DNA of 64,000 bases from Dehalococcoidia bacterium (GTDB lineage Bacteria > Chloroflexota > Dehalococcoidia > Lucifugimonadales > UBA3495): NCBI GenBank assembly GCA_003523055.1, contig DPHC01000002.1, positions 392,933 through 456,932 of the forward strand, in the 5' to 3' direction. The notes below the pieces were generated by a model that had not been told where the DNA came from, searched no databases, and saw only the letters and a program-made list of their open reading frames with translations. The position numbers and the translations under genes were made by a program. This document shows positions 40,969 through 53,968 of this stretch, piece after piece. Position 1 is the stretch's first letter; every line of letters starts with the position of its first letter.

Positions 40969-41685
40969 CTATTCTTTCCAAAATCTTTCTTCAATGAAAT
41001 TCCATCCTTCTGATACTACATCTTCACGAACGTATTCAATCATACCAGGATGACCACATGCATAGACATAGGTTGATTGTTTCGAGAGTTTATTGATATT
41101 CAACTGGTCTTTAACGATGCTATTCACCCTACCAACATTGCCTAACCAGCCATCATTTCTTGAGTCATCAGGTCGGCTTATAGTGGGGATAAAATTCACC
41201 GTATTAGGAAAGTTCCGTGACAAATGAAATAATTCTTGGTCATAACACAATTCATCTTGGTAACTAGCACCCAATAAGACATAAAAAACTTTCTCTGAGC
41301 TGGAAGGTTGGTTTAAATAATCTCTTATCATACTTATGTACGGTGAAACGCCCGTCACTGTTGCAACCATTACATGGTGAGTGTACTCATTTTTCAAGAT
41401 AAATATACCTTTTGCTCTAGGTCGTAAGGAAACTTTATCTCCTAAATTTAATTTCCATATTTTAGGCGTCAATTCTCCATCAGGTACAAGTTCAATAAAA
41501 ATTTCTATCGTCTGTTCAAATGGTGCTGAAGCTATTGAATAAGCTCGTTCTATTCCATCTATACCTAGAGTGCAATACTGGCCAGGTTTAAAAGTAAATT
41601 GATTTTGTTCACATCTAAGAGTTATAACCATAAGATCTTCAGTTATTTTTTTTCTAGAAATTAACTGAGCCGTTGGAAGATTCAC
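40969..41685 (-). CDS. Ferredoxin-NADP+ reductase-type FAD/NAD(P)-binding oxidoreductase
   Basis: 238 aa. FAD motif RAYSIAS, NAD(P)-domain MVATVTGVSP and C-terminal YACGHPGM. Starts 6 nt after the NuoG/FdsA-like gene. Confidence 0.8.
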   Translation of the reverse strand: MNLPTAQLISRKKITEDLMVITLRCEQNQFTFKPGQYCTLGIDGIERAYSIASAPFEQTIEIFIELVPDGELTPKIWKLNLGDKVSLRPRAKGIFILKNEYTHHVMVATVTGVSPYISMIRDYLNQPSSSEKVFYVLLGASYQDELCYDQELFHLSRNFPNTVNFIPTISRPDDSRNDGWLGNVGRVNSIVKDQLNINKLSKQSTYVYACGHPGMIEYVREDVVSEGWNFIEERFWKE

Positions 41686-41691
41686 AGTTCT

Positions 41692-44520
41692 TTATCTCCT
41701 TTTGCTTATATTAGCAACAAGCACTTTTAATCCAGGGACATCAGACATAGGATCTATATTTTCACTATTTTGTAATTCGATCGCTAATTGCCCAAACAAA
41801 GAAGTAGTAGATAGAACACCTGAGGGAATTTTCTCATTAATTCTGACGGTGCCATTCATTTTTTGATTACTTGTTGTAACTGTAATTTTATCACCCTCAT
41901 TAATCAATAATTCTTTAGCAGAAGATACATTTAACTCAAATACATCTGGACGATGTATATAATTCTGATCACTTTCTTCTATTATTTTCATAGAGTTGCT
42001 TGAAGAGAACAAAACTCTCCCTTGGACCAACAACAAATCTGCAGTATTACAATCATTGACTTCGTTTACATTCACATCTGGAACGTACACACAAAAATGA
42101 GTTTCTACGCCTGGTGAGAATAGCTGGGAAGATCCATAAGGATTAGCGGTGCCAGCGGCAGGCCATTGCATACCATTACTTTCATAGCTAGCATATAGTT
42201 CTTGTGTAGGTTTAGGAGTATCATACCCTGATCTAAATACTAATTTTACATTTTTATCTAGAATTTCATATGAAATCCCTTCATATATATTGCACACTTC
42301 GGATATCTCGTCCATAACCGCAGATTCATTCTCAAAATTAAAACCGTCTAACGACCACAATTTTGCCAATTCGCTGGCAACCCATATTTCTGACTTGGCT
42401 TCATTGTTTTTAACAGGCATTACTTCTGAAAATTTTTGCACTCTTCTTTCTATATTTGTAAGAGTCCCAGATTTTTCAGCGAAAGTCAGTCTTGGAAGAA
42501 CCACATCTGCAATATCAGTCAATTGAGTTTCAAAACTATCTTGCACTACTAAGAAATCTAATTCTTGTAGCTGATTTGCTAAAAACCTCATCGAATCATC
42601 TGATTCAACTGGCAAATCTCCTATAACCATCATTTTTTTTATGCTTCCATCTGACACAGACACACCAAGGTTTCTAACGGGAATACCTGACTGGCTTGAT
42701 ATCTCAATTCCCCATTTATGTTTCAGTGTTTCAGCAGCTGTCTTATCTTCTACAAAACTACCTCCGGGCAATCTGTTTGGCATGCATCCCACATCTTGAG
42801 CACCTTGTTCATTAGCACCATATCGCATAGGGTATATGCCCGAACCAATTGTATTAATATTATCTGTAATTAGTGTCAAGTTAGTTAAATTTGCTACAAC
42901 ATAATCTGATATAGCATGCGAAATGGTGTCTAAGGAATATATAATTGATGCTGTATCAGATTGTGTTAACAATTGAGCGACACTCAATAAATCAGACTCG
43001 TCCACTTCTGTCGTACTGCAAATTTGAGAAAGATCTAAATTTTGGACATACAAACATAATTCATCTATATTTTTGATCGTATCGCGTAAGTTAGGAATAT
43101 CAATCAAATCATTATCAAACATCAATTTCATAATACCCAGCAATACCATATTTTCACTGCCAGGACGAGGCCTAATCCAAACATCGCTATGGCGAGTCAA
43201 TTCCACTTCTCTTACATCGATTACGATTAATTTAGCTCCGGATTTTATTGCTTTCTTTATGGGCAGAGATATGACATTTTGTTGTTCTGTAATGTTAGCG
43301 TTAAAGACTAATACACATTCAGATTTTGAAATGTCCCAAATAGATCCGGTTGCAGCCCCCATTCCTATCATTTTTTGCAAATTATCAGTCAATTCTGGGT
43401 GTATATTAGTAGATTGATCTATATTATTGGTTCCCATCTGCATCCTGACTAATTTTTGCCATATGTATAATTCTTCATTAGTGCTATCTTTAGCAGCTAG
43501 CAAAGCAAAATCCTCTTTGGAGCTTACGTTTAACTTATCTGATATTAATTTTAAAGCCTCTTCCCAGCTAACTTTTGCTAATTTTCCGTCTTTACGTATC
43601 ATTGGATGACGAATTCTTGAGGTAGAATTTACAAAATCCAGACCAAATTTCCCTCTAAAACAGGCTTGTCCATGATTTACTGGAGAATCTAATTCAGGCA
43701 CTACTCTAATCATTCGTCCAAATTCATTTAATTCAAAGTTCATCTGGCAACCAACAGGACATTGAGTACAAATAGTTTTTTTGATTTCTCGCGGTTTTTC
43801 CCATTTGTTTTCTCTTTCTACTAGGGCACCTACTGGGCACACATCTAAGCAAGCCCCACAAAATTCACAACCCGATTCTAATAAAGAAGACCCAAATGAA
43901 GTTCCTACTAATGCTCTGCCTCCTCGTTCAACAAACGTAATTGCGGAGTCTCCTCGTATTTCTTCGCAGACTCTGACACATCTTCCGCAAGTTATACATA
44001 AATTATAGTCCCTATCATAGAAAGGGTCTTTAATTTCTAGTGGAATCTCTTTATATTTATAGTCTAAATGGGATTCCAATTCCATCCCTAAATATCTCAC
44101 AGTATCTTTAAATTCACACCTTTCATTTTTGGGACAGGTTATACATCTGTCATTAACTGACACGTGCCTCAAGCAAACATCGCCTGGGCCGCAAATATCG
44201 ATACGGTGGCACGTCAAGCATCCATTTGGATGTTCTGCTATCATCATTTCTATTATGGATTTTCTAAGTTCATTTACCTCAGGAACATTATTGTTGATTA
44301 TCATTCCATCTTGAACTGGCAGTGTGCATGATGCTGGTGTTCCTCGGCCATCAACTACAGACACAACACAAGTACGACAAGCTCCAAAAGGTTTCATGCC
44401 AGGGTGATAGCACAAGTAAGGAATATATATGCCAGCGTCTATAGCGGCTTCCAATACCATTTTACCTGGTTCTGTTTTTACTTCTTGACCATCAATAGTA
44501 ATAGTTATTTCGTCTGGCAT
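41692..44520 (-). CDS. NuoG/FdsA-like Fe-S subunit with a molybdopterin-oxidoreductase-type C-terminal domain; the FDH Mo-ligand Cys/Sec appears to be absent
   Basis: 942 aa. N-terminal 2Fe-2S ferredoxin region (CYHPGMKPFGACRTC), 4Fe-4S motifs (CITCGRCVRVC, CEFCGACLDVCPVGA), MopB 4Fe-4S (CTQCPVGC...C) and a C-terminal MopB beta-barrel-like tail. The segment GTNNIDQSTNIHPEL aligns by eye with FDH GTNNVDCCARV[U/C]HGPS, placing Ile at the ligand position. Confidence 0.8.
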   Translation of the reverse strand: MPDEITITIDGQEVKTEPGKMVLEAAIDAGIYIPYLCYHPGMKPFGACRTCVVSVVDGRGTPASCTLPVQDGMIINNNVPEVNELRKSIIEMMIAEHPNGCLTCHRIDICGPGDVCLRHVSVNDRCITCPKNERCEFKDTVRYLGMELESHLDYKYKEIPLEIKDPFYDRDYNLCITCGRCVRVCEEIRGDSAITFVERGGRALVGTSFGSSLLESGCEFCGACLDVCPVGALVERENKWEKPREIKKTICTQCPVGCQMNFELNEFGRMIRVVPELDSPVNHGQACFRGKFGLDFVNSTSRIRHPMIRKDGKLAKVSWEEALKLISDKLNVSSKEDFALLAAKDSTNEELYIWQKLVRMQMGTNNIDQSTNIHPELTDNLQKMIGMGAATGSIWDISKSECVLVFNANITEQQNVISLPIKKAIKSGAKLIVIDVREVELTRHSDVWIRPRPGSENMVLLGIMKLMFDNDLIDIPNLRDTIKNIDELCLYVQNLDLSQICSTTEVDESDLLSVAQLLTQSDTASIIYSLDTISHAISDYVVANLTNLTLITDNINTIGSGIYPMRYGANEQGAQDVGCMPNRLPGGSFVEDKTAAETLKHKWGIEISSQSGIPVRNLGVSVSDGSIKKMMVIGDLPVESDDSMRFLANQLQELDFLVVQDSFETQLTDIADVVLPRLTFAEKSGTLTNIERRVQKFSEVMPVKNNEAKSEIWVASELAKLWSLDGFNFENESAVMDEISEVCNIYEGISYEILDKNVKLVFRSGYDTPKPTQELYASYESNGMQWPAAGTANPYGSSQLFSPGVETHFCVYVPDVNVNEVNDCNTADLLLVQGRVLFSSSNSMKIIEESDQNYIHRPDVFELNVSSAKELLINEGDKITVTTSNQKMNGTVRINEKIPSGVLSTTSLFGQLAIELQNSENIDPMSDVPGLKVLVANISKRR

Positions 44521-44532
44521 GTTAACTCCATA

Positions 44533-46254
44533 TTATCTTCTTGTACGTTTAGGAGAAAATCTTTTTTTATTGCATACTTTAGTTAGGCAAGTATGTCCAA
44601 TTATATGTTGATTAAACTCTTCGGAAAAATATTTAATGGCAGAAGCTACTGGATTAAAACCAAGCTGACCGTGGCCACACAATGAACCAGCTTGCATATT
44701 TTCTCCTATACTCCTCATAAGGTCCAAATCTTCTTCAGTTCCTTCTAAATCGCAGATACGCTCTAACACTTCTAAGAGGTGACTCATTCCCATTCGGCAC
44801 GGGAAACATTTACCGCAAGATTCATATTGGCAAAATGCTATTAGTGAACGAGTTAAATCCACAATACAAGTCCGTTCATCTGCTGCAATGATGCCTCCGG
44901 ATCCCAAAATCGCTCCAGCATTTCTAAAAGACTCGTAATCTAGGATCAGATCTATGTTATCGGCATTCAAGACTCCACCCAGCGGGCCTCCAGTTTGAAC
45001 TAACTTTAAATTCCTACCTTCTGGGATTCCTCCAGCAAGATCAAACAATATATCTTTTAAATTAAGCCCCATTGGAACTTCTATCATACCTGTTCGGTTC
45101 AGAGAGCCTGACAAACATAAAATAGCGGTACCTTTGCTTTGCTCATATCCAATTTCTGAAAACCATTGGCCTCCCTTTCTGACTATTTCAGGGACGTACG
45201 ACAAAGTTTTTACATTATTGATATTAGTTGGCTTCCCAAACACTCCTACTTGTGCAGGGAACGGTGGCCTATATCTCGGCATAGCTCGTTTCCCTTCTAT
45301 AGCTTCCATCAGTGCCGTTTCTTCTCCTGCGACGTATGAATCTCCAGTTAACGCAATTTCTAGGTCAAATGAGAAATCTGTGCCTAGTATATTTGTTCCC
45401 AATAAACCTTTTTCATATGCTTGCTTTACTGCGGTTTTAGCTCTTTCAATTGGTCCATCATGTCCATGCCTTATGAATATATATCCTCTGTTTGAATTAG
45501 TCGCATAGCCTGCAAGAGCAATGCCTTCTACGACTGTATGTGGGTCACTTTCTAATATTCCTTTATCATTAAAAGCTCCAGGGTCTCCTTCCTCGCAATT
45601 ACATAGAATATATTTATCCTTAGCAGGATTAGAGGCTAAGAAGCTCCATTTTACTCCTGTAGCAAATGCCGCTCCTCCTCTTCCTCTCAATCCAGATTCT
45701 TTTACTTCGTTGAGAGTAGACTCAGGATCCAATTCGAACAATGCCCGATTCAAAGCATAGTATCCTCCATTGGATATGTATTGATCGATATCATACGGGT
45801 CAATATTACCGGCATTCCTCAACGAGATCCGTAATTCTTTAGATTTCATCGGGTGATCTTCTAACTTAGTTACACCTTCTAATTCCATATCACCGCTATA
45901 TAAAAAAACGTGCTTATTGGGGATTTGGTTATCAATAATATGAGACTGTATAATATCCTCAAGGTTATCTTCGGATACGTTATTATAGAAAATTCTATTT
46001 CCACCTGGCATCTGAATATCTAATAAAGGTTCTGCAAAACATAAACCTATGCATCCAACTTCACTGACGTTGGCTTGGATACCTAACATCTCTAAGCAGT
46101 TGGAAATAGAATTATATATTTGCTTACTTCCTGCAGCTTCTCCACACAGAGCAGTACCTATTCTGATCCATGGTAATTCACCTTGGTTCAGGTGATTCCA
46201 TTTTTCTTGCGCCTGTGCAGATATTTTCTTAAATGAGTCAGTCTCTACTACCAC
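44533..46254 (-). CDS. NuoF/FdsB-like NADH-binding FMN / 4Fe-4S subunit with an N-terminal extension
   Basis: 573 aa. GRGGAAF occurs at about residue 190. N3-cluster cysteines lie in ESCGKCFPCR and SLCGHGQ. The roughly 120-aa N-terminal extension contains Cys residues (GTALCGEA, CIGLCFAEP). Confidence 0.88.
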   Translation of the reverse strand: MVVETDSFKKISAQAQEKWNHLNQGELPWIRIGTALCGEAAGSKQIYNSISNCLEMLGIQANVSEVGCIGLCFAEPLLDIQMPGGNRIFYNNVSEDNLEDIIQSHIIDNQIPNKHVFLYSGDMELEGVTKLEDHPMKSKELRISLRNAGNIDPYDIDQYISNGGYYALNRALFELDPESTLNEVKESGLRGRGGAAFATGVKWSFLASNPAKDKYILCNCEEGDPGAFNDKGILESDPHTVVEGIALAGYATNSNRGYIFIRHGHDGPIERAKTAVKQAYEKGLLGTNILGTDFSFDLEIALTGDSYVAGEETALMEAIEGKRAMPRYRPPFPAQVGVFGKPTNINNVKTLSYVPEIVRKGGQWFSEIGYEQSKGTAILCLSGSLNRTGMIEVPMGLNLKDILFDLAGGIPEGRNLKLVQTGGPLGGVLNADNIDLILDYESFRNAGAILGSGGIIAADERTCIVDLTRSLIAFCQYESCGKCFPCRMGMSHLLEVLERICDLEGTEEDLDLMRSIGENMQAGSLCGHGQLGFNPVASAIKYFSEEFNQHIIGHTCLTKVCNKKRFSPKRTRR

Positions 46255-46299
46255 AAGCTATCCTAAAAACCTTTCCAATGTATGTTCCAGTGTGATCAT

Positions 46300-46761
46300 T
46301 TACTTTAATCCTTCAATTTTATTTTTCAACAAGGATTTTGTAACACGCCCTATTAAATGATGATCAATCGCTACAACAGGGGCCTGCGCACATGCTCCTA
46401 AGCATGTGTTAAAGCCTAATTCTATTTCTCCATTTTGAGTTCGACCTTCTTCAGTTATATCCAAAGATTCAAAAGCTTCTTCAAAAATTTCCATAGCACC
46501 AGCAATATGACATGTCGGGCCCCAACATATTTCTATATTACACTTAGCAGGTTCTTCGAATTTGAAGTTTGGGTAGAAAGAAGCAACTGCCCACACGTCA
46601 TTTACAGTTGTATTGGGAATTTCTAAAGAAACAACTTCCATTGATTCCTTAGGTATGTAACCTATTTTATCTTGTATTGCCAATAATGATGACAATACAG
46701 TTTTGGTGGGTTGTTCTTGGCTACGAACGGCATTTGTGATAGCAGTGGTAAGCACATCCAT
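46300..46761 (-). CDS. NuoE/FdsG-like thioredoxin-like [2Fe-2S] subunit
   Basis: 153 aa. 2Fe-2S ligand pairs are CWGPTCHIAG and CLGACAQAP. Confidence 0.88.
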   Translation of the reverse strand: MDVLTTAITNAVRSQEQPTKTVLSSLLAIQDKIGYIPKESMEVVSLEIPNTTVNDVWAVASFYPNFKFEEPAKCNIEICWGPTCHIAGAMEIFEEAFESLDITEEGRTQNGEIELGFNTCLGACAQAPVVAIDHHLIGRVTKSLLKNKIEGLK

Positions 46762-47569: not shown

Positions 47570-47668
47570 TTCTTTTATATATATGATATATAACTCAGTG
47601 TCAACGTGTGTTGCAATTATTACTAAATATTGGTTATCCTGAATTTAATAATATTAATGGGAAGTGTA

Positions 47669-48127
47669 ATGCGAATAGCTATAGGCTCAGATCACAACGG
47701 ATTCACGATAAAAAATAGCATACTCATACCTTGGCTACAATCACAAGGGCATCAAGTTGTTGATTCCGGGGCATTTGAATTTAATGCAGAGGACGATTAC
47801 CCTGACTTTGCAAAAAAAGTAGCTTTAAAGATCTCAACTCAACAAGCAGAAAGAGGAATAATTATATGCGGAAGCGGAGTAGGCGCAAGTATTACTGCGA
47901 ATAAAATTAATGGTATTCGGGCAGCTATATGCCACGACACATACAGTGCAAAACAAGGGGTCCAACATGATGACATGAACGTCATCTGCATCGGTTCAAA
48001 AATTGTAGGAGAGCAAATAATATATGACATTATAGAATCTTTCTTATCTGCACAATTCCAAGACTCCGAAGAAAGGTTCGTACGTAGATTGAATAAAGTT
48101 CTAGATATTGAGCAACAAAAACTTTAA
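47669..48127 (+). CDS. rpiB: Ribose-5-phosphate isomerase B (RpiB/LacAB family)
   Basis: MRIAIGSDHNG at the N-terminus, then ICGSGVGASITANK. The ORF track starts at 47630 (non-ATG start); the ATG at 47669 matches the family N-terminus. Confidence 0.88.
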   Translation: MRIAIGSDHNGFTIKNSILIPWLQSQGHQVVDSGAFEFNAEDDYPDFAKKVALKISTQQAERGIIICGSGVGASITANKINGIRAAICHDTYSAKQGVQHDDMNVICIGSKIVGEQIIYDIIESFLSAQFQDSEERFVRRLNKVLDIEQQKL

Positions 48128-48166: not shown

Positions 48167-48958
48167 ATGTTCGTACGCAGAAATTTAACGGATTTTGTAG
48201 AGACTCGGGCAGGATCACTTTACTTCGAAAAATCTGGTAAAGGCTTTCCCTTAGTGTTATTGCACCCGTTAGGAATGTCCACATGGGTCTGGGAAGCAAT
48301 TCGTGGAGGCTTGAGTGAACAATTCACAGTTTATGCTTTCGACATGCTGGGTCATGGTAAGTCAGATAAACCTAAACATGAATTCAGCATTTCTGATTAT
48401 GCAGAATCATTAGATGACGCATGCCAAGTCTTAAACATCCACAGAGCACATTTTATAGGCAATTCAGTAGGGGCTTGTTTGGCCATTGAAATGGCATCCA
48501 GGTATCCTGATCGTGTTGACAAATTAGTATTAGTAGGTTGCCCTGTATGGAACATATCGGAGAGTGAAGAAAGAATTAAAGCTTTTCAATTTGATTTTGA
48601 CGATGCTGGACTCCCCAAACCTCGGACATTGCAAGAACTCAAAGAAAAATCTACATTTGCTAACCCAACTGAACAATTACTACTATCAGTCAATCAATCA
48701 AGATTACAGGCAGGAATATGGGTTAAAAACCTCTCCACCGCGTTAGCATATTATGATGTTTATTCTAAATTAAACTTAGTCAATGCAAGTAAAACTTTAA
48801 TATTATATGGGGAAGCAGATAGGTTATTACCAGCAGCCCCTATTTTAAAACACAACATTATCAGGTCTTTATCAATCACCATTCCTGGCGTAGGGCATGT
48901 TCCTCAAGTAGAGAATCCTGGGGCATTTACAAACATCCTGAATGAGTTTTTACAGTAA
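48167..48958 (+). CDS. Alpha/beta-fold hydrolase
   Basis: 263 aa. Contains LLHPLGMS (oxyanion region), the nucleophile elbow GNSVGA and a C-terminal GHVPQVENP. Confidence 0.8.
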   Translation: MFVRRNLTDFVETRAGSLYFEKSGKGFPLVLLHPLGMSTWVWEAIRGGLSEQFTVYAFDMLGHGKSDKPKHEFSISDYAESLDDACQVLNIHRAHFIGNSVGACLAIEMASRYPDRVDKLVLVGCPVWNISESEERIKAFQFDFDDAGLPKPRTLQELKEKSTFANPTEQLLLSVNQSRLQAGIWVKNLSTALAYYDVYSKLNLVNASKTLILYGEADRLLPAAPILKHNIIRSLSITIPGVGHVPQVENPGAFTNILNEFLQ

Positions 48959-48973
48959 ATTAACCTGCTAGCC

Positions 48974-50092
48974 TTACATTTTTGATGCCAGTTTAGATTT
49001 TTTCTTGAAGTGAGGTATTACGTATTTGTCAAAAAGTCTGAGAGTCTCCATAACTTCTTGATGAGAAACTGGCCCAACCTGGAATAATGGCATGATTTCA
49101 TCTATTCCTAAAGATTCATATTTTTCGAGGTATTTTATGCAATCATCTGGGTCACCCATACAGAATCTATCACCCTCATTCAAAAGATCCATCGATGTAA
49201 CTTCATCTTTTCGGGCGGTATCAATCTTGGTAGCTCTATCATAATGCCACTTGTAATCTTCAGGGACATCAGAAGCAGAATATCCTTCCCATACCTTTGA
49301 ATCTCTCACTTTCTGTTGATACCTGTACCAATCTATAAGTTCAGCGCTACGTTCTTTTGCCTTTTTACCATCCTCCGAACAATAAGCTACTGTGCTTCCT
49401 GAAATTTTGTTTGTGATAACTTTACTAATTGGGTTAGGAGACAAGCTAGCCTTACGGTAAATTTCAATTAATTTTTCTGTTCGGTCTATACCGATACTGG
49501 TTTGCGTTAAGCATCCTAATCCTTGAGTACCCGCTTTTTCGAATGTGAGTTCTTGAGAACAAGCTTGCCAAATGGGAGGGTGCGGGCTTTGCACTGGCTT
49601 TGGAATTACTTCTCTTTCTCCTATATTGAAGTAATTACCTTGGTATGAAAAAACTTCATCAGTCCAAGCCTTTGGAATTATATCAAGGGTTTCTTCTACG
49701 ATATTTGTAGCATCTTTCAAATCTCTATCAAATGGTAACATTTGATAAGGATATCCAGATCTGCCAATACCTACATCCACTCTACCATGGCTCAATATAT
49801 CTAACGTAGCCATTCTAACTGCAGTATGTAAAGGGTGATGTAATGGTGGCAAAACTGCAGCTATACCTAGTCTTATGTTTTGTGTTCTTTGGCTTATAGC
49901 TGCCAATGCTAAATCTGGCGCGCTCGCATGGGACCATTCTGATCTAAAATGATGTTCAACAAACCAGACCGTACTCATTCCAATTTCATCTGCGTATGAA
50001 ACTTGCTCCAACATTTGGTGATACTTCTCCGATTCACTCTCACTATTCCAAGGTTTCGGAACTTGTATTTGATAAAAAAGCCCTATATCCAT
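48974..50092 (-). CDS. LLM-class (luciferase-like) flavin-dependent oxidoreductase/monooxygenase
   Basis: 372 aa. N-terminal pattern YADEIGMSTVWFVEHHF and LDILSHGRVDVGIGRS, typical of luciferase-like monooxygenases. Confidence 0.85.
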   Translation of the reverse strand: MDIGLFYQIQVPKPWNSESESEKYHQMLEQVSYADEIGMSTVWFVEHHFRSEWSHASAPDLALAAISQRTQNIRLGIAAVLPPLHHPLHTAVRMATLDILSHGRVDVGIGRSGYPYQMLPFDRDLKDATNIVEETLDIIPKAWTDEVFSYQGNYFNIGEREVIPKPVQSPHPPIWQACSQELTFEKAGTQGLGCLTQTSIGIDRTEKLIEIYRKASLSPNPISKVITNKISGSTVAYCSEDGKKAKERSAELIDWYRYQQKVRDSKVWEGYSASDVPEDYKWHYDRATKIDTARKDEVTSMDLLNEGDRFCMGDPDDCIKYLEKYESLGIDEIMPLFQVGPVSHQEVMETLRLFDKYVIPHFKKKSKLASKM

Positions 50093-50103
50093 ATGATTTC
50101 CTC

Positions 50104-50988
50104 CTATTTAATCCGTACATATTTATCTACTGACTTTTCCGCAGTCAGAGCAAGATAAATATCTCCGTTTAGATCAACCCATGATCCATGAGCTGATCTA
50201 CATGGCCATCGTGATAATACTTCTCCTGATTTAGACAAAATACTAAACTGAGGAGGGTTCTCGCCTTCAGGTCGTTCACTTATATAAAATAAACCGTCTG
50301 AATCACATGAAATATCCAGTGGCCTTTGCATGTCTGTCCACATATCCAGATATTCTCCTTCTGGAGAAAAAATCTGTATTCTACTGTTTTCTCTGTCGCA
50401 TAAATAAATGTTTTGATCTTGACCTATGATCAAACTGTGAGGCAAATGGAATTCCATAGGGTCTATTTTCCCTGGTTTCCCCCAAGATTTAACCAATTGA
50501 CCGTCAGATGTAAATCTATGAATTCTAGCGTTTCCATAACCATCAGATATGTAATAATCTCCATTGGGATGTGGAACTATTTCTGTAGGCAAATTAAATG
50601 GGCCAGCAGATCTAGTCAAAAGCTGTCCTGGAAATTCGCATCCCGTGTCAGAAGCCACCCCATGTTGCCCTATTATTTGGAGAGGTTTGCCATCTAATGT
50701 GAATTTCAAAGCTACTTGGCCTTCTCGGTCAGTAATATATACCAGATCGTTCTCGATATATATCCCATGAGGACTAACAAAGTTACCATCTCCCCAAGAA
50801 TTTAGAAAAACACCGGTTGAATCAAAAACTAACACTGGCGGGTCTTTTCTTTGAAATACGTATACCCTGTTTAAAGAATCTGTAGCTACTGCACTAACAG
50901 TTCCAAATGTTTGTCCTTCTGGCAAAATAGCCCAATCTTTTTGATAAGTGTATGTGAAAGAGCCTTGTCCCACAATATTTTCAGCCAT
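50104..50988 (-). CDS. NHL-repeat six-bladed beta-propeller protein (PAL/lactonase-like)
   Basis: 294 aa with repeated blades, for example PHGIYIENDLVYITDREG, PNGDYYISDGYGNARIHRF and NIYLCDRENSRIQIF. Confidence 0.7.
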   Translation of the reverse strand: MAENIVGQGSFTYTYQKDWAILPEGQTFGTVSAVATDSLNRVYVFQRKDPPVLVFDSTGVFLNSWGDGNFVSPHGIYIENDLVYITDREGQVALKFTLDGKPLQIIGQHGVASDTGCEFPGQLLTRSAGPFNLPTEIVPHPNGDYYISDGYGNARIHRFTSDGQLVKSWGKPGKIDPMEFHLPHSLIIGQDQNIYLCDRENSRIQIFSPEGEYLDMWTDMQRPLDISCDSDGLFYISERPEGENPPQFSILSKSGEVLSRWPCRSAHGSWVDLNGDIYLALTAEKSVDKYVRIK

Positions 50989-51003
50989 TGTTACTCCTTT
51001 TTA

Positions 51004-52074
51004 TTATCTGTATCCATTGAATAGAGATCTCACTGTTGAAAGAACTCTTTCAACATTAGGTACATACTGATCTTCTAAAATACGGCTATAGGGAACAGGA
51101 GTATGTGGTGCAGTGACTTTGGATGGCGGAGCATCCAAATAATCAAATGCTTCTTCAGCAACTCTAGAACATATGTCAGAGGCTATACTACATACTGGAG
51201 TATCTTCATCTACAACCACTACTGCATGAGTTTTCTTAACTGATTCAATGATATGGTCATAATCTATTGGAGATATACTTAATAAATCGATTACTTCAGC
51301 TTCAATTCCAATTTCTGATAACTGTTTAGCCACTTCAGTGCACACCCAAGTCATTTTAGAAATACCTACTAATGTTATATCATTGCCGTTCCTCACAGTA
51401 CGGGCTTTCCCTAATGGCAATACATAGGAATCTTCAGGTACTAAACCAGGTTCTGTATATAGCCCTTTATGTTCAAAATATATAACTGGGTCATTATCTC
51501 GTATCGCAGCCGTTAGTAATCCTTTTGCAGTATATGCGTCAGACGGGACTACTCCCTTTAATCCAGGCATATGACTAAACAATGAATAATATGATGCAGA
51601 ATGCTGAGCAGCACTTCCAAATCCTGCTCCTATTCTAGTTAGCATAGTAAATGGAACATCCACTTGACCACCAAACATATATCTCATCTTAGCCGCATTA
51701 TTAATTAATTGATCCCAACACACTCCCATAAAATCCACAAACATAAGCTCTGCGATCACTCTAAGGCCAGTTGAGGAAGCTCCTATGGCTGCTCCCATAA
51801 AACCCGCTTCTGATAATGGAGTATCCAGTACTCTTTCATTTCCGAATTCTTGTATCAACCCAACTGTAGTCCTAAATGGACCACCCCACGCATCTACTAT
51901 ACCCAAATGCTCTCGACCGGCTCCTCCAGCAATTTCTTCTCCCATGATAATTACGTTTTCATCCGCTCTCATTTCTTGACGTAGTGCTTCATTGATTGCT
52001 TCACGATATAGTATTTCTCTTCCTATAGTAGGTATCATTTCAACCATTAAGTTCTCCTTATTTCCAGTATTCAC
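51004..52074 (-). CDS. 2-oxoacid (pyruvate/acetoin/branched-chain) dehydrogenase E1 component, beta subunit
   Basis: 356 aa with a transketolase-like pyrimidine-binding and C-terminal domain pattern (DTPLSEAGFMGAAIGAS, FEHKGLY). Follows E1 alpha by 8 nt. Confidence 0.9.
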   Translation of the reverse strand: MNTGNKENLMVEMIPTIGREILYREAINEALRQEMRADENVIIMGEEIAGGAGREHLGIVDAWGGPFRTTVGLIQEFGNERVLDTPLSEAGFMGAAIGASSTGLRVIAELMFVDFMGVCWDQLINNAAKMRYMFGGQVDVPFTMLTRIGAGFGSAAQHSASYYSLFSHMPGLKGVVPSDAYTAKGLLTAAIRDNDPVIYFEHKGLYTEPGLVPEDSYVLPLGKARTVRNGNDITLVGISKMTWVCTEVAKQLSEIGIEAEVIDLLSISPIDYDHIIESVKKTHAVVVVDEDTPVCSIASDICSRVAEEAFDYLDAPPSKVTAPHTPVPYSRILEDQYVPNVERVLSTVRSLFNGYR

Positions 52075-52082
52075 AATTCAAA

Positions 52083-53090
52083 TTATATGGACATATTAGT
52101 GCCGCGTTTCATCATCGACAGTGGATAATCATCGTATACATCAGTATAAAGGTCATTCAATTCGGGGAGAGGGCTATTATCTGCGTAGGATACCGCTTCT
52201 TCCATTTGTTGCTCGCAAGCCAAATCAATATCATTCAATTCTTCTTCTGTAATAGAGCCTTCAGGAATTACTTTTTCTCTAAAAAGCTTCAAAGGATCTC
52301 TAGATTTATAATAGTCTTCCTCTTCTGAAGATCTATAAGTTAACGGGTTATCAAAAACAGTATGCCCGTAATATCTATAAGTCTTACATTCCAATAAAGA
52401 AGGTCCTTCTCCTGACCTAGCACGTTCTATAGCAAGAGCGGCTGCTTCATAAACAGCAAAAACATCCATTCCGTCAACATTAAATCCTGGCATGTCGTAT
52501 GCTGCTGCTCTGTCTGATATTGCAGCGATTGAAGAAGCATATTCAAATGGAGTTGATTCGGCATAACCGTTATTTTCACAACAAAATATCACTGGCAATT
52601 TCCACACAGCTGCCAAATTCATTGATTCATGTAGCACTCCTTGGTTAGCTGCCCCATCACCAAAAAAGGCTACAGCGACTCTTCCCAATTTTTTAGTTTT
52701 GGAAGTCAACGCTGCTCCAACCGCCAAAGGTATACTTGCTGCCACTACTCCATTGGTACCTAACATTCCTTTAGTCATATCTGCTATATGCATAGACCCT
52801 CCTTTGCCTTTATTAGGACCAGTTGATCGACCAAACAATTCTGCCATCATTTTTTTAGGATCCACTCCTTTAGCAATGCAGTGGCCATGCCCCCTATGCG
52901 TACTTCCAATGTAATCGTCATTTGTTAAGTGAGCACAAACACCAGCGGGCACCGCTTCCTGCCCTACTGAGGAATGTACAGAGGCAGACATCCCTCGTTG
53001 CCCTGTTTCCGGTATTCCACGTTCTTCAAAATGCCTGATAGTCGACATAGTGGTATACAAGTTTAATAATCCTTCTCTATTTAGTTCCAT
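52083..53090 (-). CDS. 2-oxoacid dehydrogenase E1 component, alpha subunit (TPP-binding)
   Basis: 335 aa. TPP motif region FFGDGAANQGVLHESMNLAAVWKLPVIFCCENNGY. Confidence 0.9.
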   Translation of the reverse strand: MELNREGLLNLYTTMSTIRHFEERGIPETGQRGMSASVHSSVGQEAVPAGVCAHLTNDDYIGSTHRGHGHCIAKGVDPKKMMAELFGRSTGPNKGKGGSMHIADMTKGMLGTNGVVAASIPLAVGAALTSKTKKLGRVAVAFFGDGAANQGVLHESMNLAAVWKLPVIFCCENNGYAESTPFEYASSIAAISDRAAAYDMPGFNVDGMDVFAVYEAAALAIERARSGEGPSLLECKTYRYYGHTVFDNPLTYRSSEEEDYYKSRDPLKLFREKVIPEGSITEEELNDIDLACEQQMEEAVSYADNSPLPELNDLYTDVYDDYPLSMMKRGTNMSI

Positions 53091-53131: not shown

Positions 53132-53968
53132 TTAGCCTTGCTTCGTGTATTCTACCTTTATTTCATCACCAACAACAATTCCAATTTCTTTTGCAGCGCT
53201 AACACTATATTTAGAAATTTCTAAATACCCATGACTTCCTATTAATGCTGTAAAAGGATCATTTGAGTTGCTGTTTTGAAAAGTCGAAGCTATTTTTGAA
53301 ATTTTTTGTTTTGCTACTTCGATGTTAGTGATTTTGTCTTCATTAATCAATCCACTGTGTATATTAGAAATCAAATTACCAAATCTATCGCAATACACAA
53401 TTGAGCCAATAATAGACTGCTCTTCAATCAAAGGCGTAGGTAATGGTGAATATTTTAGTTTTTTTATTTCAGTTCCATAAACAGAAGGATCCAGTGTCTG
53501 ATTGAGCAATACTGCTATAGGAGCAATAATATCTCTACCATGAAAGGTATTACTTACAGGGTTCATCCAAAATTCTTTTCGATCCAATGCAAAAGCTTTA
53601 CAGGATTTTGGTACATTAATTAATCCATATTGCGCATCTGTGCCCAATTCAGAGTATTTTTTGATTATTTCACTTAAAACTCCATTATCGGGCCCTATAA
53701 AACAACCGCCTGGAGTTTGTAATATTACTATCCGCCTATCAGTTCCTACTCCAGGATCTACAATTATTATATGAATTGCATTCTCATTAAAATATTCATA
53801 ACTACATCTAGTTAGAAATTTAGCCTGATCAATATTTTGAGGTTCAATATCGTGAGTTATATCAATTATTTGCGCAAGTGGGTCTTTAGTAAGCATCACA
53901 CTTTTCATGACTCCTACGTAATGATCAAGAGTACCAAAGTCGGTCATCAGTGATAGTATGCCTGGCAT
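53132..53968 (-). CDS. SAM hydroxide adenosyltransferase / SAM hydrolase (DUF62, chlorinase-fluorinase family)
   Basis: 278 aa. N-terminal LMTDFGTLDHYVGVMKSV and IIVDPGVGT, typical of DUF62. Confidence 0.8.
   Translation of the reverse strand: MPGILSLMTDFGTLDHYVGVMKSVMLTKDPLAQIIDITHDIEPQNIDQAKFLTRCSYEYFNENAIHIIIVDPGVGTDRRIVILQTPGGCFIGPDNGVLSEIIKKYSELGTDAQYGLINVPKSCKAFALDRKEFWMNPVSNTFHGRDIIAPIAVLLNQTLDPSVYGTEIKKLKYSPLPTPLIEEQSIIGSIVYCDRFGNLISNIHSGLINEDKITNIEVAKQKISKIASTFQNSNSNDPFTALIGSHGYLEISKYSVSAAKEIGIVVGDEIKVEYTKQG

What the first reader, a model, noticed from the sequence alone, without database searches (positions are those of the whole stretch)
48167..53090. E1 alpha/beta (no E2 or E3) + NHL propeller + LLM flavin oxidoreductase, converging on an alpha/beta hydrolase: candidate catabolic cassette
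Four co-directional genes with gaps of 8 to 15 nt encode a TPP-dependent E1 alpha/beta pair, an NHL six-bladed propeller (a fold shared with lactonases and PAL-type lyases) and a luciferase-like flavin oxidoreductase. No E2 or E3 component is nearby. An alpha/beta hydrolase converges on the cluster 15 nt away. A monooxygenase, a lactonase- or esterase-like hydrolase and C-C cleaving TPP chemistry together fit the oxidise-then-hydrolyse logic that published SAR202 genome analyses proposed for degrading recalcitrant alicyclic compounds. The substrate is unknown.
Basis: inference. Interest (0 to 1): 0.4.

Follow-up and report, generated by a model that had tools for sequence, protein, structure and literature searches.

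The report
SAR202 E1, PAL-like lyase, flavin monooxygenase neighbourhood
Five real enzyme genes sit together in an old, conserved gene order of marine SAR202 bacteria, but they look like three separate modules rather than one pathway; the most interesting is a bacterial relative of the animal peptide-amidating lyase paired with a flavin monooxygenase.

Summary
All five genes are real and the family calls are right. No E2 or E3 homologue lies in the 64-kb window or in 2.3 Mb of related SAR202 DNA. The tight spacing is uninformative: the window is 92% coding with a median same-strand gap of 15 nt, and the true E1alpha-E1beta gap is 35 nt.

The order SAM hydrolase-E1alpha-E1beta-NHL-LLM, facing RpiB-ABH, recurs in distant high-GC relatives and is probably ancestral. 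The genes nevertheless behave as three modules.
- **E1alpha/beta** is acetoin-dehydrogenase (AcoAB) type, not PDH-equivalog. It keeps the TPP motif and both conserved catalytic histidines, so it probably needs a lipoyl-E2/E3 encoded elsewhere. E2/E3 are annotated in a cultured SAR202 strain, and a lipoyl synthase occurs in a relative.
- **The NHL protein** is a peptidyl-alpha-hydroxyglycine amidating lyase (PAL)-type enzyme. The Tyr and Arg and two of the three Zn histidines align directly; the third is placed by position. All are invariant. It repeatedly sits beside an oxygenase, usually this LuxA-like, probably FMN-dependent LLM.
- **The hydrolase (ABH)** travels with RpiB and lies 0.4-1.3 Mb from E1/NHL in two other SAR202 genomes.

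Best reading: NHL plus LLM form a hydroxylate-then-eliminate pair. A single alicyclic Baeyer-Villiger cassette is poorly supported.

The parts
52083..53090 (-). E1 alpha subunit (335 aa), a TPP-dependent 2-oxoacid/acyloin dehydrogenase E1 of the AcoA-like type
   Evidence: Pfam E1_dh, 1.7e-94. TIGR03182 scores 362 bits, below its 393.85 cutoff. The best annotated relatives are AcoA of acoXABC operons, at 51-53% identity. The GDGAANQG...CENN TPP motif and the YRYYGH histidine align with human PDHA1.
51004..52047 (-). E1 beta subunit (347 aa from ATG 52047; the longest ORF runs to a GTG at 52074), AcoB-like
   Evidence: Pfam Transket_pyr plus Transketolase_C. AGGAG lies 6 nt upstream of ATG 52047. 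Identity is 53% to Paracoccus AcoB (333 bits), against 243 bits to human PDHB. It shares a 12-residue GGAG...DAWGG insertion with AcoB proteins that PDHB lacks. The AAQHS histidine is conserved.
50104..50988 (-). Six-bladed NHL propeller (294 aa), a PAL-type (peptidyl-alpha-hydroxyglycine alpha-amidating lyase-like) enzyme, probably Zn-dependent; cytoplasmic location is judged by eye (no signal peptide seen)
   Evidence: phmmer against 3fvz aligns LPHG, SDGYxNxRI, PHSL and DRENxRIQ. These hold query residues H74, Y151, H184 and R199. The AF2 model has pLDDT 91 and six blades. The Foldseek top PDB hit is PAL 3fvz, TM 0.80. These residues plus H267 are invariant in 16 orthologues and in a 44%-identical paralogue.
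48974..50092 (-). Luciferase-like monooxygenase (372 aa), LuxA/RslO1-like and probably FMNH2-dependent
   Evidence: Pfam Bac_luciferase, 7.2e-52. No NCBIfam subfamily cutoff is reached; the best is TIGR04020 at 120.8 against 244.45. Nearest by sequence and fold are 7bip RslO1, 8cbb Enhygromyxa LuxA, 2i7g, the 6ket OX domain and LuxA. F420 enzymes and 3,6-diketocamphane monooxygenase rank lower.
48167..48958 (+). Alpha/beta-fold serine hydrolase (263 aa), co-directional with RpiB upstream and convergent on the LLM
   Evidence: Pfam Abhydrolase_1, 7.5e-28. A GNSVG nucleophile motif is visible in the sequence. Nearest solved relatives are esterases and meta-cleavage-product hydrolases. Orthologues at 52-59% identity sit in a HAD/RpiB-ABH-NMT1 block in other SAR202 genomes.
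53132..53968 (-). Flanking module member: SAM hydroxide adenosyltransferase / (R)-SAM hydrolase family gene, the conserved upstream neighbour of E1 alpha
   Evidence: Pfam SAM_HAT_N plus SAM_HAT_C. Its order with E1 alpha and E1 beta is conserved in most of the related loci.
47630..48127 (+). Flanking module member: ribose-5-phosphate isomerase B, the conserved upstream partner of the hydrolase
   Evidence: NCBIfam PRK05571, 185.7 bits against a 135 cutoff. RpiB-ABH adjacency also occurs in L007, L008, L177 and L179.

Best explanation
The region is the meeting point of three conserved SAR202 gene modules. It is not a self-contained, E2-less catabolic operon.

**Module 1 (SAM hydrolase-E1alpha-E1beta).** This is an acetoin-dehydrogenase-type (AcoAB-like) TPP E1. 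It keeps the TPP motif and the two conserved catalytic histidines. It therefore most likely cleaves pyruvate or an acyloin and hands the acyl group to a lipoyl-E2/E3 encoded elsewhere in the genome. This step is inferred.

**Module 2 (NHL-LLM).** This is the likeliest working unit. The LuxA-like, probably FMNH2-dependent monooxygenase hydroxylates a carbon that carries a carboxylate and an N (or O) substituent. The PAL-type Zn lyase then eliminates across the resulting carbinolamide. That releases a 2-oxo acid such as glyoxylate or pyruvate, plus an amide or amine. The logic is that of animal PHM plus PAL, with a flavin enzyme in place of the copper enzyme. The lyase active site is shown by sequence and fold. 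The pairing is shown by repeated adjacency. The chemistry and substrate are inferred.

**Module 3 (RpiB-ABH).** This is a generic serine esterase/hydrolase. It abuts the others only because two syntenic blocks meet here.

The 2-oxo acid released by module 2 could feed the adjacent E1. That link is speculative.
For: **Gene identities:**

**E1 type**
- It is closest to AcoA/AcoB of aco operons: 50-56% identity, against 38-44% for PDH-annotated E1beta.
- It shares an insertion with AcoB, and groups with AcoB proteins on a small NJ tree.
- The TPP motif and the alpha and beta histidines are conserved.
- No E2/E3 homologue occurs in 173 loci totalling 2.3 Mb.
- Cultured SAR202 strain JH545 is annotated with K00627 and K00382 (PMC10444878 Suppl. 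Data 1). A lipA homologue lies in L177.

**NHL protein**
- PAL motifs align with the 3fvz sequence.
- PAL is the top structural match, TM 0.80.
- The catalytic residues are invariant, including in a 44%-identical paralogue.

**NHL next to an oxygenase**
- Window clade and six high-GC loci.
- 11 further GTDB loci, within amidohydrolase-NHL-LLM-MFS-CoA-transferase strings.
- An isolated NHL-LLM pair beside an IS110 transposase (L019).
- A paralogous NHL-LLM2 pair (L105/L111).
- An ABM-ABM-NHL string (L083-type).

**ABH:** it sits in the HAD/RpiB-ABH-NMT1 block and far from E1/NHL in the genomes of L060 and L016.

**Spacing:** the gaps are typical of the genome.
Against: - NHL and LLM are not obligate partners. 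LLM follows NHL in only 13 of 79 GTDB loci.
- Most LLM homologues at 57-71% identity, including the closest outside the window clade, have no NHL or E1 within 10 kb.
- Some loci have amidohydrolase-LLM without NHL (L142, L151, L156, L164).
- E1beta lies upstream of NHL on the same strand in 58 of 69 assessable loci. The compact E1-NHL-LLM order appears ancestral on a small NJ tree. A shared pathway for all three is therefore not excluded.
- The third Zn histidine (H267) is placed by blade position, not by direct alignment.
- The FMN assignment rests on nearest neighbours only, and the LLM model is of moderate quality (pLDDT 78.8).
- No flavin reductase was found in the window among the ORFs scanned.
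- No substrate, transcript or activity data exist.
Confidence: 0.5

Rival explanations
1. There is one catabolic cassette for recalcitrant alicyclic compounds. The LLM acts as a Baeyer-Villiger-type monooxygenase. The resulting lactone or ester is opened by the alpha/beta hydrolase or by the NHL protein acting as a lactonase. The E1 alpha/beta then performs TPP-dependent C-C cleavage without E2/E3.
For: - All five genes recur together in the same relative order and orientation in the window clade, L179, L113 and L093.
- L118 has LLM and ABH convergent and adjacent.
- The compact order is probably ancestral.
- 3,6-diketocamphane monooxygenase, a type II Baeyer-Villiger enzyme, is a detectable structural relative of the LLM (rank 14).
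- ABH relatives include esterases.
Against: - The NHL protein has the PAL lyase residue set, not a lactonase-type site.
- ABH's constant partners are RpiB, HAD and NMT1. In two type C genomes checked it is 0.4-1.3 Mb away. In L093 and L113 two unrelated genes separate it from the LLM.
- The E1 retains the conserved catalytic histidines, and SAR202 has E2/E3 annotated and a lipA.
- The LLM's closest relatives are RslO1/LuxA-type, not Baeyer-Villiger enzymes.
- The same synteny embraces GatB, SecG and SAM hydrolase.
Confidence: 0.12
2. Pure inherited gene order with no functional coupling at all. The E1 alpha/beta is simply the PDH E1 of SAR202, working with distal E2/E3. NHL, LLM and ABH are unrelated enzymes that sit in a slowly rearranging stretch of the chromosome.
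For: - The order ACS-GatB-SecG-SAM hydrolase-E1-NHL is conserved together with clearly unrelated housekeeping genes.
- Insertions, including opposite-strand genes and a restriction-modification pair, are tolerated between E1beta, NHL and LLM.
- E1 is very conserved (75-88% identity), as expected of a core enzyme.
- Published SAR202 reconstructions call these genes pdhA/pdhB.
- The gaps are typical of the genome.
Against: - NHL is found next to an oxygenase in five different genomic settings. These include a transposon-flanked isolated pair and a divergent paralogous pair, which inheritance of one ancestral order does not explain.
- The E1 is nearer to AcoAB than to PDH-annotated E1 and falls below the PDH E1alpha equivalog cutoff.
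Confidence: 0.25
3. An AcoABC-like system in which the neighbouring alpha/beta hydrolase is a lipoyl-less version of the alpha/beta-hydrolase-fold E2 (AcoC) of proteobacterial acetoin dehydrogenase. It would take the acyl group from the E1 directly.
For: - The E1 is AcoAB-type and shares the AcoB insertion.
- In Paracoccus and Chelatococcus the partner E2 is a lipoyl domain fused to an alpha/beta hydrolase.
- The window ABH hits the AcoC model PRK14875 (86.5 bits). It aligns over the full length of the AcoC hydrolase domain (E 1e-19).
Against: - Identity is only 25%, no better than to PcaD-type hydrolases (98 bits).
- There is no lipoyl domain.
- ABH is on the opposite strand, travels with RpiB, and is far from E1 in other SAR202 genomes.
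- 118 of the 120 listed homologues (the top of 171 hits) are 263-276 aa; the two that differ most are one of 299 aa and one truncated at 238 aa. None carries a Biotin_lipoyl domain.
Confidence: 0.04

Closest known systems
Acetoin dehydrogenase enzyme system (AcoA/AcoB E1 with AcoC E2 and Lpd), as in the acoXABC operons of Paracoccus and Chelatococcus and the Acinetobacter aco operon
   Same: - E1alpha and E1beta are 50-56% identical to AcoA/AcoB, more than to PDH- or BCKDH-type E1.
- They share the 12-residue E1beta insertion.
- They share the heterotetramer-type domain set, TPP motif and catalytic histidines.
   Different: - No acoC/E2, lpd, acoX, acoR, acetoin reductase or butanediol dehydrogenase lies beside it in any of about 170 SAR202 loci.
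- It is a near-universal, highly conserved gene next to housekeeping genes, not an inducible catabolic operon.
- The substrate is unknown.
Peptidylglycine alpha-amidating monooxygenase of animals (PHM copper monooxygenase plus PAL zinc lyase; PAL structure 3fvz)
   Same: - The NHL protein has the same six-bladed fold, and PAL is its top structural match.
- PAL's motifs are present (HG, SDGYxNxRI, PHSL, DRENxRIQ), plus a third invariant His at the equivalent blade position.
- It sits next to a monooxygenase gene, matching the hydroxylate-then-eliminate order. That logic comes from established knowledge of PAM.
   Different: - Identity is only 23%.
- It appears cytoplasmic and is not a domain of a bifunctional secretory protein.
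- The neighbouring oxygenase is a flavin-dependent TIM-barrel LLM (or ABM proteins), not a copper PHM.
- The third Zn ligand is not directly aligned.
- Activity is untested.
LuxA-like FMN-dependent luciferase-like monooxygenases (RslO1 7bip, Enhygromyxa LuxA 8cbb, Atu2307 2i7g, the PKS/NRPS OX domain 6ket)
   Same: - These are the best sequence and fold matches.
- Length is comparable (372 aa here against 329-356 aa in these structures), with no large SsuD/NtaA-type insertions.
- An EHHF motif lies near the N-terminus, as in LuxA. The LuxA motif is from my own recollection.
   Different: - Identity is 20-24%.
- It is below every curated NCBIfam subfamily cutoff.
- No adjacent flavin reductase was found.
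- The cofactor is not shown.
SAR202 'FMNO' paralogue expansions and the oxidise-then-hydrolyse model for recalcitrant DOM
   Same: The organism is SAR202/Dehalococcoidia. The LLM is one of many SAR202 luciferase-like paralogues: 859 homologues at E<=1e-20.
   Different: - This LLM belongs to a small conserved orthologue group tied to a PAL-type lyase, not to a lactonase or esterase.
- The window genome is a streamlined, low-GC lineage (about 36% GC, 92% coding), not a paralogue-rich one.

Membership tests
Heterotetrameric TPP-dependent E1 (2-oxoacid/acetoin dehydrogenase E1 alpha+beta) | E1_dh domain with the GDG...NN TPP/Mg motif in alpha; Transket_pyr plus Transketolase_C domains in beta | tested here: met
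   Pfam results. GDGAANQG...CENN aligns with human PDHA1.
Heterotetrameric TPP-dependent E1 (2-oxoacid/acetoin dehydrogenase E1 alpha+beta) | Active-site histidines used in reductive acylation of lipoamide (alpha His in YRYxGH, beta His in AQHS) | tested here: met
   YRYYGH aligns with human YRYHGH. AAQHS is identical to human PDHB. The role of these residues comes from established knowledge.
Heterotetrameric TPP-dependent E1 (2-oxoacid/acetoin dehydrogenase E1 alpha+beta) | Works with a lipoyl-E2 and E3, usually encoded alongside | tested here: not met
   No E2/E3 or lipoyl-domain homologue occurs in the window or in 173 loci totalling 2.3 Mb. Genome-wide presence in the window lineage could not be tested. 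E2/E3 are annotated in cultured SAR202 JH545, and lipA is present in L177.
Pyruvate dehydrogenase E1 (PDH equivalog) | Reaches the curated equivalog score for PDH E1 alpha (TIGR03182/TIGR03181) | tested here: not met
   362 bits against a 393.85 cutoff, and 266 against 411.35. E1beta only just passes the subfamily model PRK09212 (324.3 against 321).
Acetoin dehydrogenase E1 (AcoA/AcoB) | Closest similarity to AcoA/AcoB, and the shared AcoB-specific insertion | tested here: met
   50-56% identity to AcoA/AcoB, against 38-44% to PDH-annotated E1beta. Insertion and NJ tree. Sampling is limited to plasmid-borne and PDB sequences.
Acetoin dehydrogenase E1 (AcoA/AcoB) | Sits in an aco operon (acoC, lpd, acoX/acoR, butanediol or acetoin dehydrogenases) | tested here: not met
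   None of these occurs in the window. An SDR with acetoin-reductase-like scores lies nearby on the opposite strand only in larger relatives.
Peptidyl-alpha-hydroxyglycine alpha-amidating lyase (PAL, EC 4.3.2.5) | Six-bladed NHL beta-propeller | tested here: met
   The AF2 model has pLDDT 91 and six four-stranded blades. The Foldseek top hit is 3fvz, TM 0.80.
Peptidyl-alpha-hydroxyglycine alpha-amidating lyase (PAL, EC 4.3.2.5) | Three Zn-ligand histidines on blades 2, 4 and 6 | tested here: inconclusive
   H74 and H184 align directly with the PAL HG and PHS motifs. H267 is invariant and starts the inner strand of blade 6, but it was not directly aligned to the PAL third histidine.
Peptidyl-alpha-hydroxyglycine alpha-amidating lyase (PAL, EC 4.3.2.5) | Catalytic Tyr in SDGYxNxR and substrate-carboxylate Arg in DRENxRIQ | tested here: met
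   Y151 and R199 align with these PAL motifs. Both are invariant across orthologues and a 44%-identical paralogue. The residue roles come from established knowledge of PAL.
Peptidyl-alpha-hydroxyglycine alpha-amidating lyase (PAL, EC 4.3.2.5) | Cleaves N-C(alpha) of alpha-hydroxyglycine amides to an amide plus glyoxylate; partnered with a copper PHM | not testable with these tools
   Activity cannot be tested here. The neighbouring oxygenase is an LLM, or ABM proteins elsewhere, not a PHM.
FMN-dependent LuxA-like luciferase-like monooxygenase | Bac_luciferase TIM barrel, nearest to FMN-using members rather than F420-using ones | tested here: met
   Pfam 7.2e-52. PDB phmmer gives FMN-type hits at 1e-31 to 1e-19, against 1e-13 and weaker for F420 enzymes. 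Foldseek ranks 1-12 are all LuxA-like or related putative FMN-type monooxygenases. This is a nearest-neighbour inference only.
FMN-dependent LuxA-like luciferase-like monooxygenase | Reaches a curated subfamily cutoff (MupA/Atu3671, Atu2307, SsuD, NtaA, F420 families) | tested here: not met
   The best is TIGR04020 at 120.8 against 244.45. TIGR03619 (F420) scores 106 against 166.9. SsuD and NtaA models score 34-46 bits.
Type II Baeyer-Villiger monooxygenase (diketocamphane monooxygenase type) | Closest similarity to 2,5-/3,6-diketocamphane monooxygenases | tested here: not met
   4uwm scores E 5e-11 (45.5 bits) by sequence and ranks 14th by fold, behind the RslO1/LuxA-type enzymes.
AcoC-type alpha/beta-hydrolase-fold E2 | N-terminal lipoyl domain fused to the hydrolase domain, encoded next to acoB | tested here: not met
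   The protein is 263 aa, and its alignment to AcoC starts at AcoC residue 113. No Biotin_lipoyl hit was found. It is on the opposite strand and linked to RpiB.
Single operon / dedicated catabolic cassette | Linkage conserved specifically among the member genes across lineages | tested here: inconclusive
   E1-NHL-LLM(-ABH) recurs in the window clade and in six high-GC loci. In 80 GTDB loci, however, only 3 have E1beta directly next to NHL, 13 of 79 assessable have the LLM adjacent, and 2 have the ABH. Housekeeping neighbours are equally conserved.

The most novel reading that the evidence does not exclude
SAR202 bacteria carry a cytoplasmic, flavin-based counterpart of the animal peptide-amidating enzyme. 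A LuxA-like monooxygenase alpha-hydroxylates N-acyl or N-substituted amino acids. A PAL-type Zn lyase then splits them into an amide or amine plus glyoxylate or pyruvate. The adjacent AcoAB-type E1 oxidises that 2-oxo acid. This would be an oxidative, non-hydrolytic route for stripping amino-acid caps from N-acylated dissolved organic matter, conserved across an abundant ocean clade.
Probability: 0.2. Interest if true: 0.65.

Novelty: new variant of a known kind. Interest (0 to 1): 0.4.

Why it matters
SAR202 is among the most abundant deep-ocean bacterial groups, and its role in turning over refractory organic matter is inferred almost entirely from gene content. This analysis shows that a gene annotated as a 'hypothetical 6-bladed propeller' or 'YncE-like' protein is in fact a PAL-type lyase. 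It occurs in 263 matching stretches of the one-genome-per-species GTDB set, has 4,349 database homologues, and is repeatedly paired with oxygenases. That yields a concrete, testable reaction: oxidative C-N cleavage that releases glyoxylate or another 2-oxo acid. The analysis also flags that the genes called pdhA/pdhB in SAR202 reconstructions are nearer to acetoin-type E1 and are never encoded beside an E2. That matters for models of how these cells make acetyl-CoA. If none of this holds, the locus is an ordinary stretch of conserved gene order.

Tried and rejected
- **Streamlining hypothesis.** I first thought the compact arrangement came from deletions in a streamlined genome, because most relatives have 1-7 kb (MFS, SDR, TRZ/ATZ amidohydrolase) between E1beta and NHL. 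I rejected this after finding the compact order in high-GC relatives that branch basally on the NHL tree.
- **E2/E3 in the E1beta-NHL gap of relatives.** None was found.
- **Relatives' neighbours relocated inside the window.** I looked for the amidohydrolase, MCM, SDR and MFS genes. None was found.
- **Promoter and terminator scans.** These gave fewer or no more sites than shuffled sequence and were not used.
- **Literature on bacterial PAL-like lyases, or lyase plus LLM.** Nothing relevant turned up, and one query was wasted on lymphoma papers.
- **Literature on SAR202 PDH.** The papers list only pdhA/pdhB, except the JH545 table, which also lists K00627 and K00382.
- **AcoC-like role for the ABH.** I considered it and rejected it.

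Full report
**Observation**

Every family call is confirmed by Pfam and NCBIfam.
- ABH: alpha/beta hydrolase, 48167-48958 (+).
- LLM: luciferase-like monooxygenase, 48974-50092 (-).
- NHL protein: 50104-50988 (-).
- E1beta: 51004-52074 (-).
- E1alpha: 52083-53090 (-).

One correction. E1beta most likely starts at ATG 52047. An AGGAG sequence lies 6 nt upstream, and gene callers chose this start on five of the six sequenced contigs carrying this locus. The E1alpha-E1beta gap is therefore 35 nt, not 8.

No E2 or E3 is in the window. tblastn with E. coli AceF/Lpd, Acinetobacter and Brevibacillus E2/Lpd, and Paracoccus AcoC found no E2, E3 or lipoyl-domain match. The other window genes scanned are housekeeping: the nuo genes, enolase, TrmD, spermidine synthase, MutS/MutL, FtsY, RNase III, PriA and deformylase.

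The tight spacing is not informative. The window is 92% coding, with a median same-strand gap of 15 nt. The same co-directional run continues through SAM hydrolase, SecG, GatB and acetyl-CoA synthetase.

**Organism**

The locus occurs at about 100% identity on long marine metagenome scaffolds. The nearest named genomes are Dehalococcoidia/Chloroflexota MAGs, with 82-88% protein identity. All 80 related loci from the one-genome-per-species set are Dehalococcoidia or SAR202. At about 36% GC, this is a streamlined SAR202 lineage.

**E1 alpha/beta**

- E1alpha scores below the PDH equivalog cutoffs: TIGR03182 gives 362 bits against 393.85.
- Among annotated plasmid-borne genes, the closest are AcoA/AcoB of acetoin operons in Paracoccus, Chelatococcus and Acinetobacter, at 50-56% identity. 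E1beta genes annotated as PDH reach only 38-44%.
- SAR202 E1beta shares a 12-residue insertion (GGAG...DAWGG) with these AcoB proteins. The insertion is missing from human PDHB, Brevibacillus and Mesorhizobium E1beta.
- The TPP motif and the two active-site histidines are conserved. From established knowledge of E1 enzymes, these histidines act in reductive acylation of lipoamide. I therefore expect a lipoyl-E2 partner.
- None lies near E1 in 173 loci totalling 2.3 Mb.
- However, the cultured SAR202 strain JH545 is annotated with K00627 (E2) and K00382 (E3) alongside K00161/K00162. A lipoyl synthase homologue sits in a SAR202 genome at L177.
- Other SAR202 papers list only pdhA/pdhB.

**NHL protein**

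- phmmer against PAL (3fvz) aligns the motifs PHG, SDGYxNxRI, PHSL and DRENxRIQ. From established knowledge of PAL, these hold two Zn histidines, the catalytic Tyr and the carboxylate-binding Arg. The query residues are H74, Y151, H184 and R199.
- A third invariant histidine, H267, starts the inner strand of blade 6. PAL's third ligand occupies the equivalent place.
- The AF2 model is confident (pLDDT 91) and six-bladed. PAL is its best PDB match, with TM 0.80.
- All these residues are invariant in orthologues and in a 44%-identical paralogue.
- The family is large and well conserved: 4,349 homologues at E<=1e-10, the top 120 at 64% identity or more, and 263 matching stretches in GTDB genomes.
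- This is a far more specific assignment than 'lactonase-like propeller', and it argues against a lactonase role.

**LLM**

No curated subfamily cutoff is reached. By sequence and by fold the nearest solved proteins are LuxA-like monooxygenases: RslO1 (7bip), Enhygromyxa LuxA (8cbb), 2i7g, the 6ket OX domain and V. harveyi LuxA. Those with a known cofactor use FMN. F420 enzymes, the type II Baeyer-Villiger 3,6-diketocamphane monooxygenase (rank 14) and SfnG (rank 34) come later. It is best described as a LuxA/RslO1-like, probably FMNH2-dependent monooxygenase. It is not SsuD-like and not clearly Baeyer-Villiger-like.

**Synteny anchored on NHL (80 GTDB loci)**

- E1beta lies upstream on the same strand in 58 of 69 assessable loci. 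It is directly adjacent in only 3, and the median spacing is 4.7 kb.
- The intervening genes are an MFS transporter, an opposite-strand SDR and a TRZ/ATZ-type deaminase amidohydrolase.
- Downstream, most loci carry a methylmalonyl-CoA-mutase-like gene, a PaaK-like ligase and an acyl-CoA dehydrogenase.
- The LLM follows NHL in 13 of 79 loci, and the ABH is present in 2 of 80.

**Synteny anchored on LLM (80 metagenome loci plus look-ups)**

- The compact order E1alpha-E1beta-NHL-LLM also occurs in high-GC (0.54-0.63) relatives: L107, L112, L113, L115, L179 and L093. In L093 a restriction-modification pair is inserted between NHL and LLM.
- L179 reproduces the whole window layout: HAD, RpiB, ABH, (NMT1), then LLM, NHL, E1beta, E1alpha and SAM hydrolase on the other strand.
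- On a small NJ tree of NHL sequences these high-GC loci are basal and the window clade branches next. The compact order is therefore probably ancestral and the insertions derived.
- Against that, most LLM homologues at 57-71% identity have no E1 or NHL within 10 kb. This includes the three loci closest to the window LLM outside its own clade. Some loci have amidohydrolase-LLM with no NHL.

**NHL and oxygenases**

NHL sits next to an oxygenase in five different settings.
- The window-type string.
- The amidohydrolase-NHL-LLM-MFS-CoA-transferase string.
- An isolated NHL-LLM pair beside an IS110 transposase (L019, a second copy in the same contig as L012).
- A divergent paralogous NHL-LLM2 pair (L105/L111).
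- An ABM-ABM-NHL-enolase-superfamily string (L081, L083, L084).

This recurrence is the best evidence for any functional coupling in the region.

**The hydrolase**

Orthologues at 52-59% identity are common in SAR202. Their constant neighbours are HAD, RpiB and an NMT1-family gene. In the genomes of L060 and L016 the ABH lies about 0.4 and 1.3 Mb from the NHL locus. These distances are my arithmetic on the record coordinates.

In L093 and L113, two unknown genes separate it from the LLM. Its closest solved relatives are esterases and meta-cleavage-product hydrolases. Similarity to the AcoC hydrolase domain is generic (25% identity), and it has no lipoyl domain. Its convergence on the LLM therefore marks where two syntenic blocks meet.

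**Interpretation**

The best-supported reading is three modules.
1. An AcoAB-type E1 that depends on a distal E2/E3.
2. A PAL-type lyase working with a flavin monooxygenase in a hydroxylate-then-eliminate reaction. This would release a 2-oxo acid plus an amide or amine. The mechanism is inferred from PAL and PHM chemistry. The substrate is unknown.
3. An unrelated RpiB-linked esterase.

The persistent E1-NHL proximity leaves open that the 2-oxo acid product feeds the E1. I give that unified pathway about 0.2.

A pure-synteny explanation remains a serious rival at 0.25.

I found no paper in the searchable library that links amidating lyases to prokaryotes or to luciferase-like monooxygenases. 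That library is incomplete.

**Verdict**

The genes are real and ordinary in family terms. The gene order is conserved, but a single cassette is not demonstrated. The PAL-type lyase paired with an oxygenase is the part worth an experiment. Interest is 0.4.

Noticed in passing
window 40969-46761 (-): NuoE-like 2Fe-2S protein, NuoF-like protein, a 942-aa Fer2/Fer4/molybdopterin protein and a 238-aa FAD/NAD-binding protein form a soluble NAD-linked formate-dehydrogenase-like cluster. It lies next to HAD/RpiB and is conserved in the window clade.
   Followed up: no
L093 6508-7924: A restriction-modification pair (an N6_N4 methyltransferase and a ThaI-family endonuclease) is inserted between NHL and LLM in a 3.3-Mb high-GC relative. 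It interrupts the otherwise compact string.
   Followed up: no
L093 9246-12467; L113 11240-14368: Two conserved proteins of about 505-519 aa and 448-457 aa, with no Pfam hit, lie between the LLM and the ABH on the ABH strand in two high-GC relatives. They are absent from the window.
   Followed up: partly
L019 6341-10048: An isolated NHL-LLM pair sits beside an IS110-family transposase. It is a second copy on the same contig as locus L012, which suggests the pair can move as a unit.
   Followed up: partly
L083 7257-9960 (also L081, L084): A NHL orthologue (64% identity) is preceded by two ABM-family small monooxygenase genes (in L083 and L084) and followed at a 4-nt gap by a mandelate racemase/enolase-superfamily gene. 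No E1 or LLM is nearby.
   Followed up: partly
window about 51930-51970 (E1beta residues about 27-40): A 12-residue insertion (GGAGREHLGIVDAWGG) near the E1beta N-terminus is shared with AcoB of Paracoccus, Chelatococcus, Acinetobacter and Bacillus sp. N5-665. It is absent from human PDHB and from Brevibacillus and Mesorhizobium E1beta. It may be a marker of the acetoin-type clade.
   Followed up: partly
L040 6360-7913 and 52 other GTDB loci: A 517-aa TRZ/ATZ-type deaminase amidohydrolase is the commonest immediate upstream neighbour of NHL (53 of 80 loci). Its best models are 8-oxoguanine deaminase, ethylammeline chlorohydrolase and guanine deaminase. It is missing from the window.
   Followed up: partly
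L177 12114-13019: A lipoyl synthase (LipA) homologue, 49% identical to Acinetobacter LipA, lies 4.3 kb downstream of the ABH orthologue in a SAR202 chromosome. At least some SAR202 therefore make lipoylated proteins.
   Followed up: partly
window 30176-35030 (+): A DUF2298 membrane protein (786 aa) is followed by an 857-aa ORF with no Pfam hit. The two longest-ORF predictions overlap by 80 nt.
   Followed up: no
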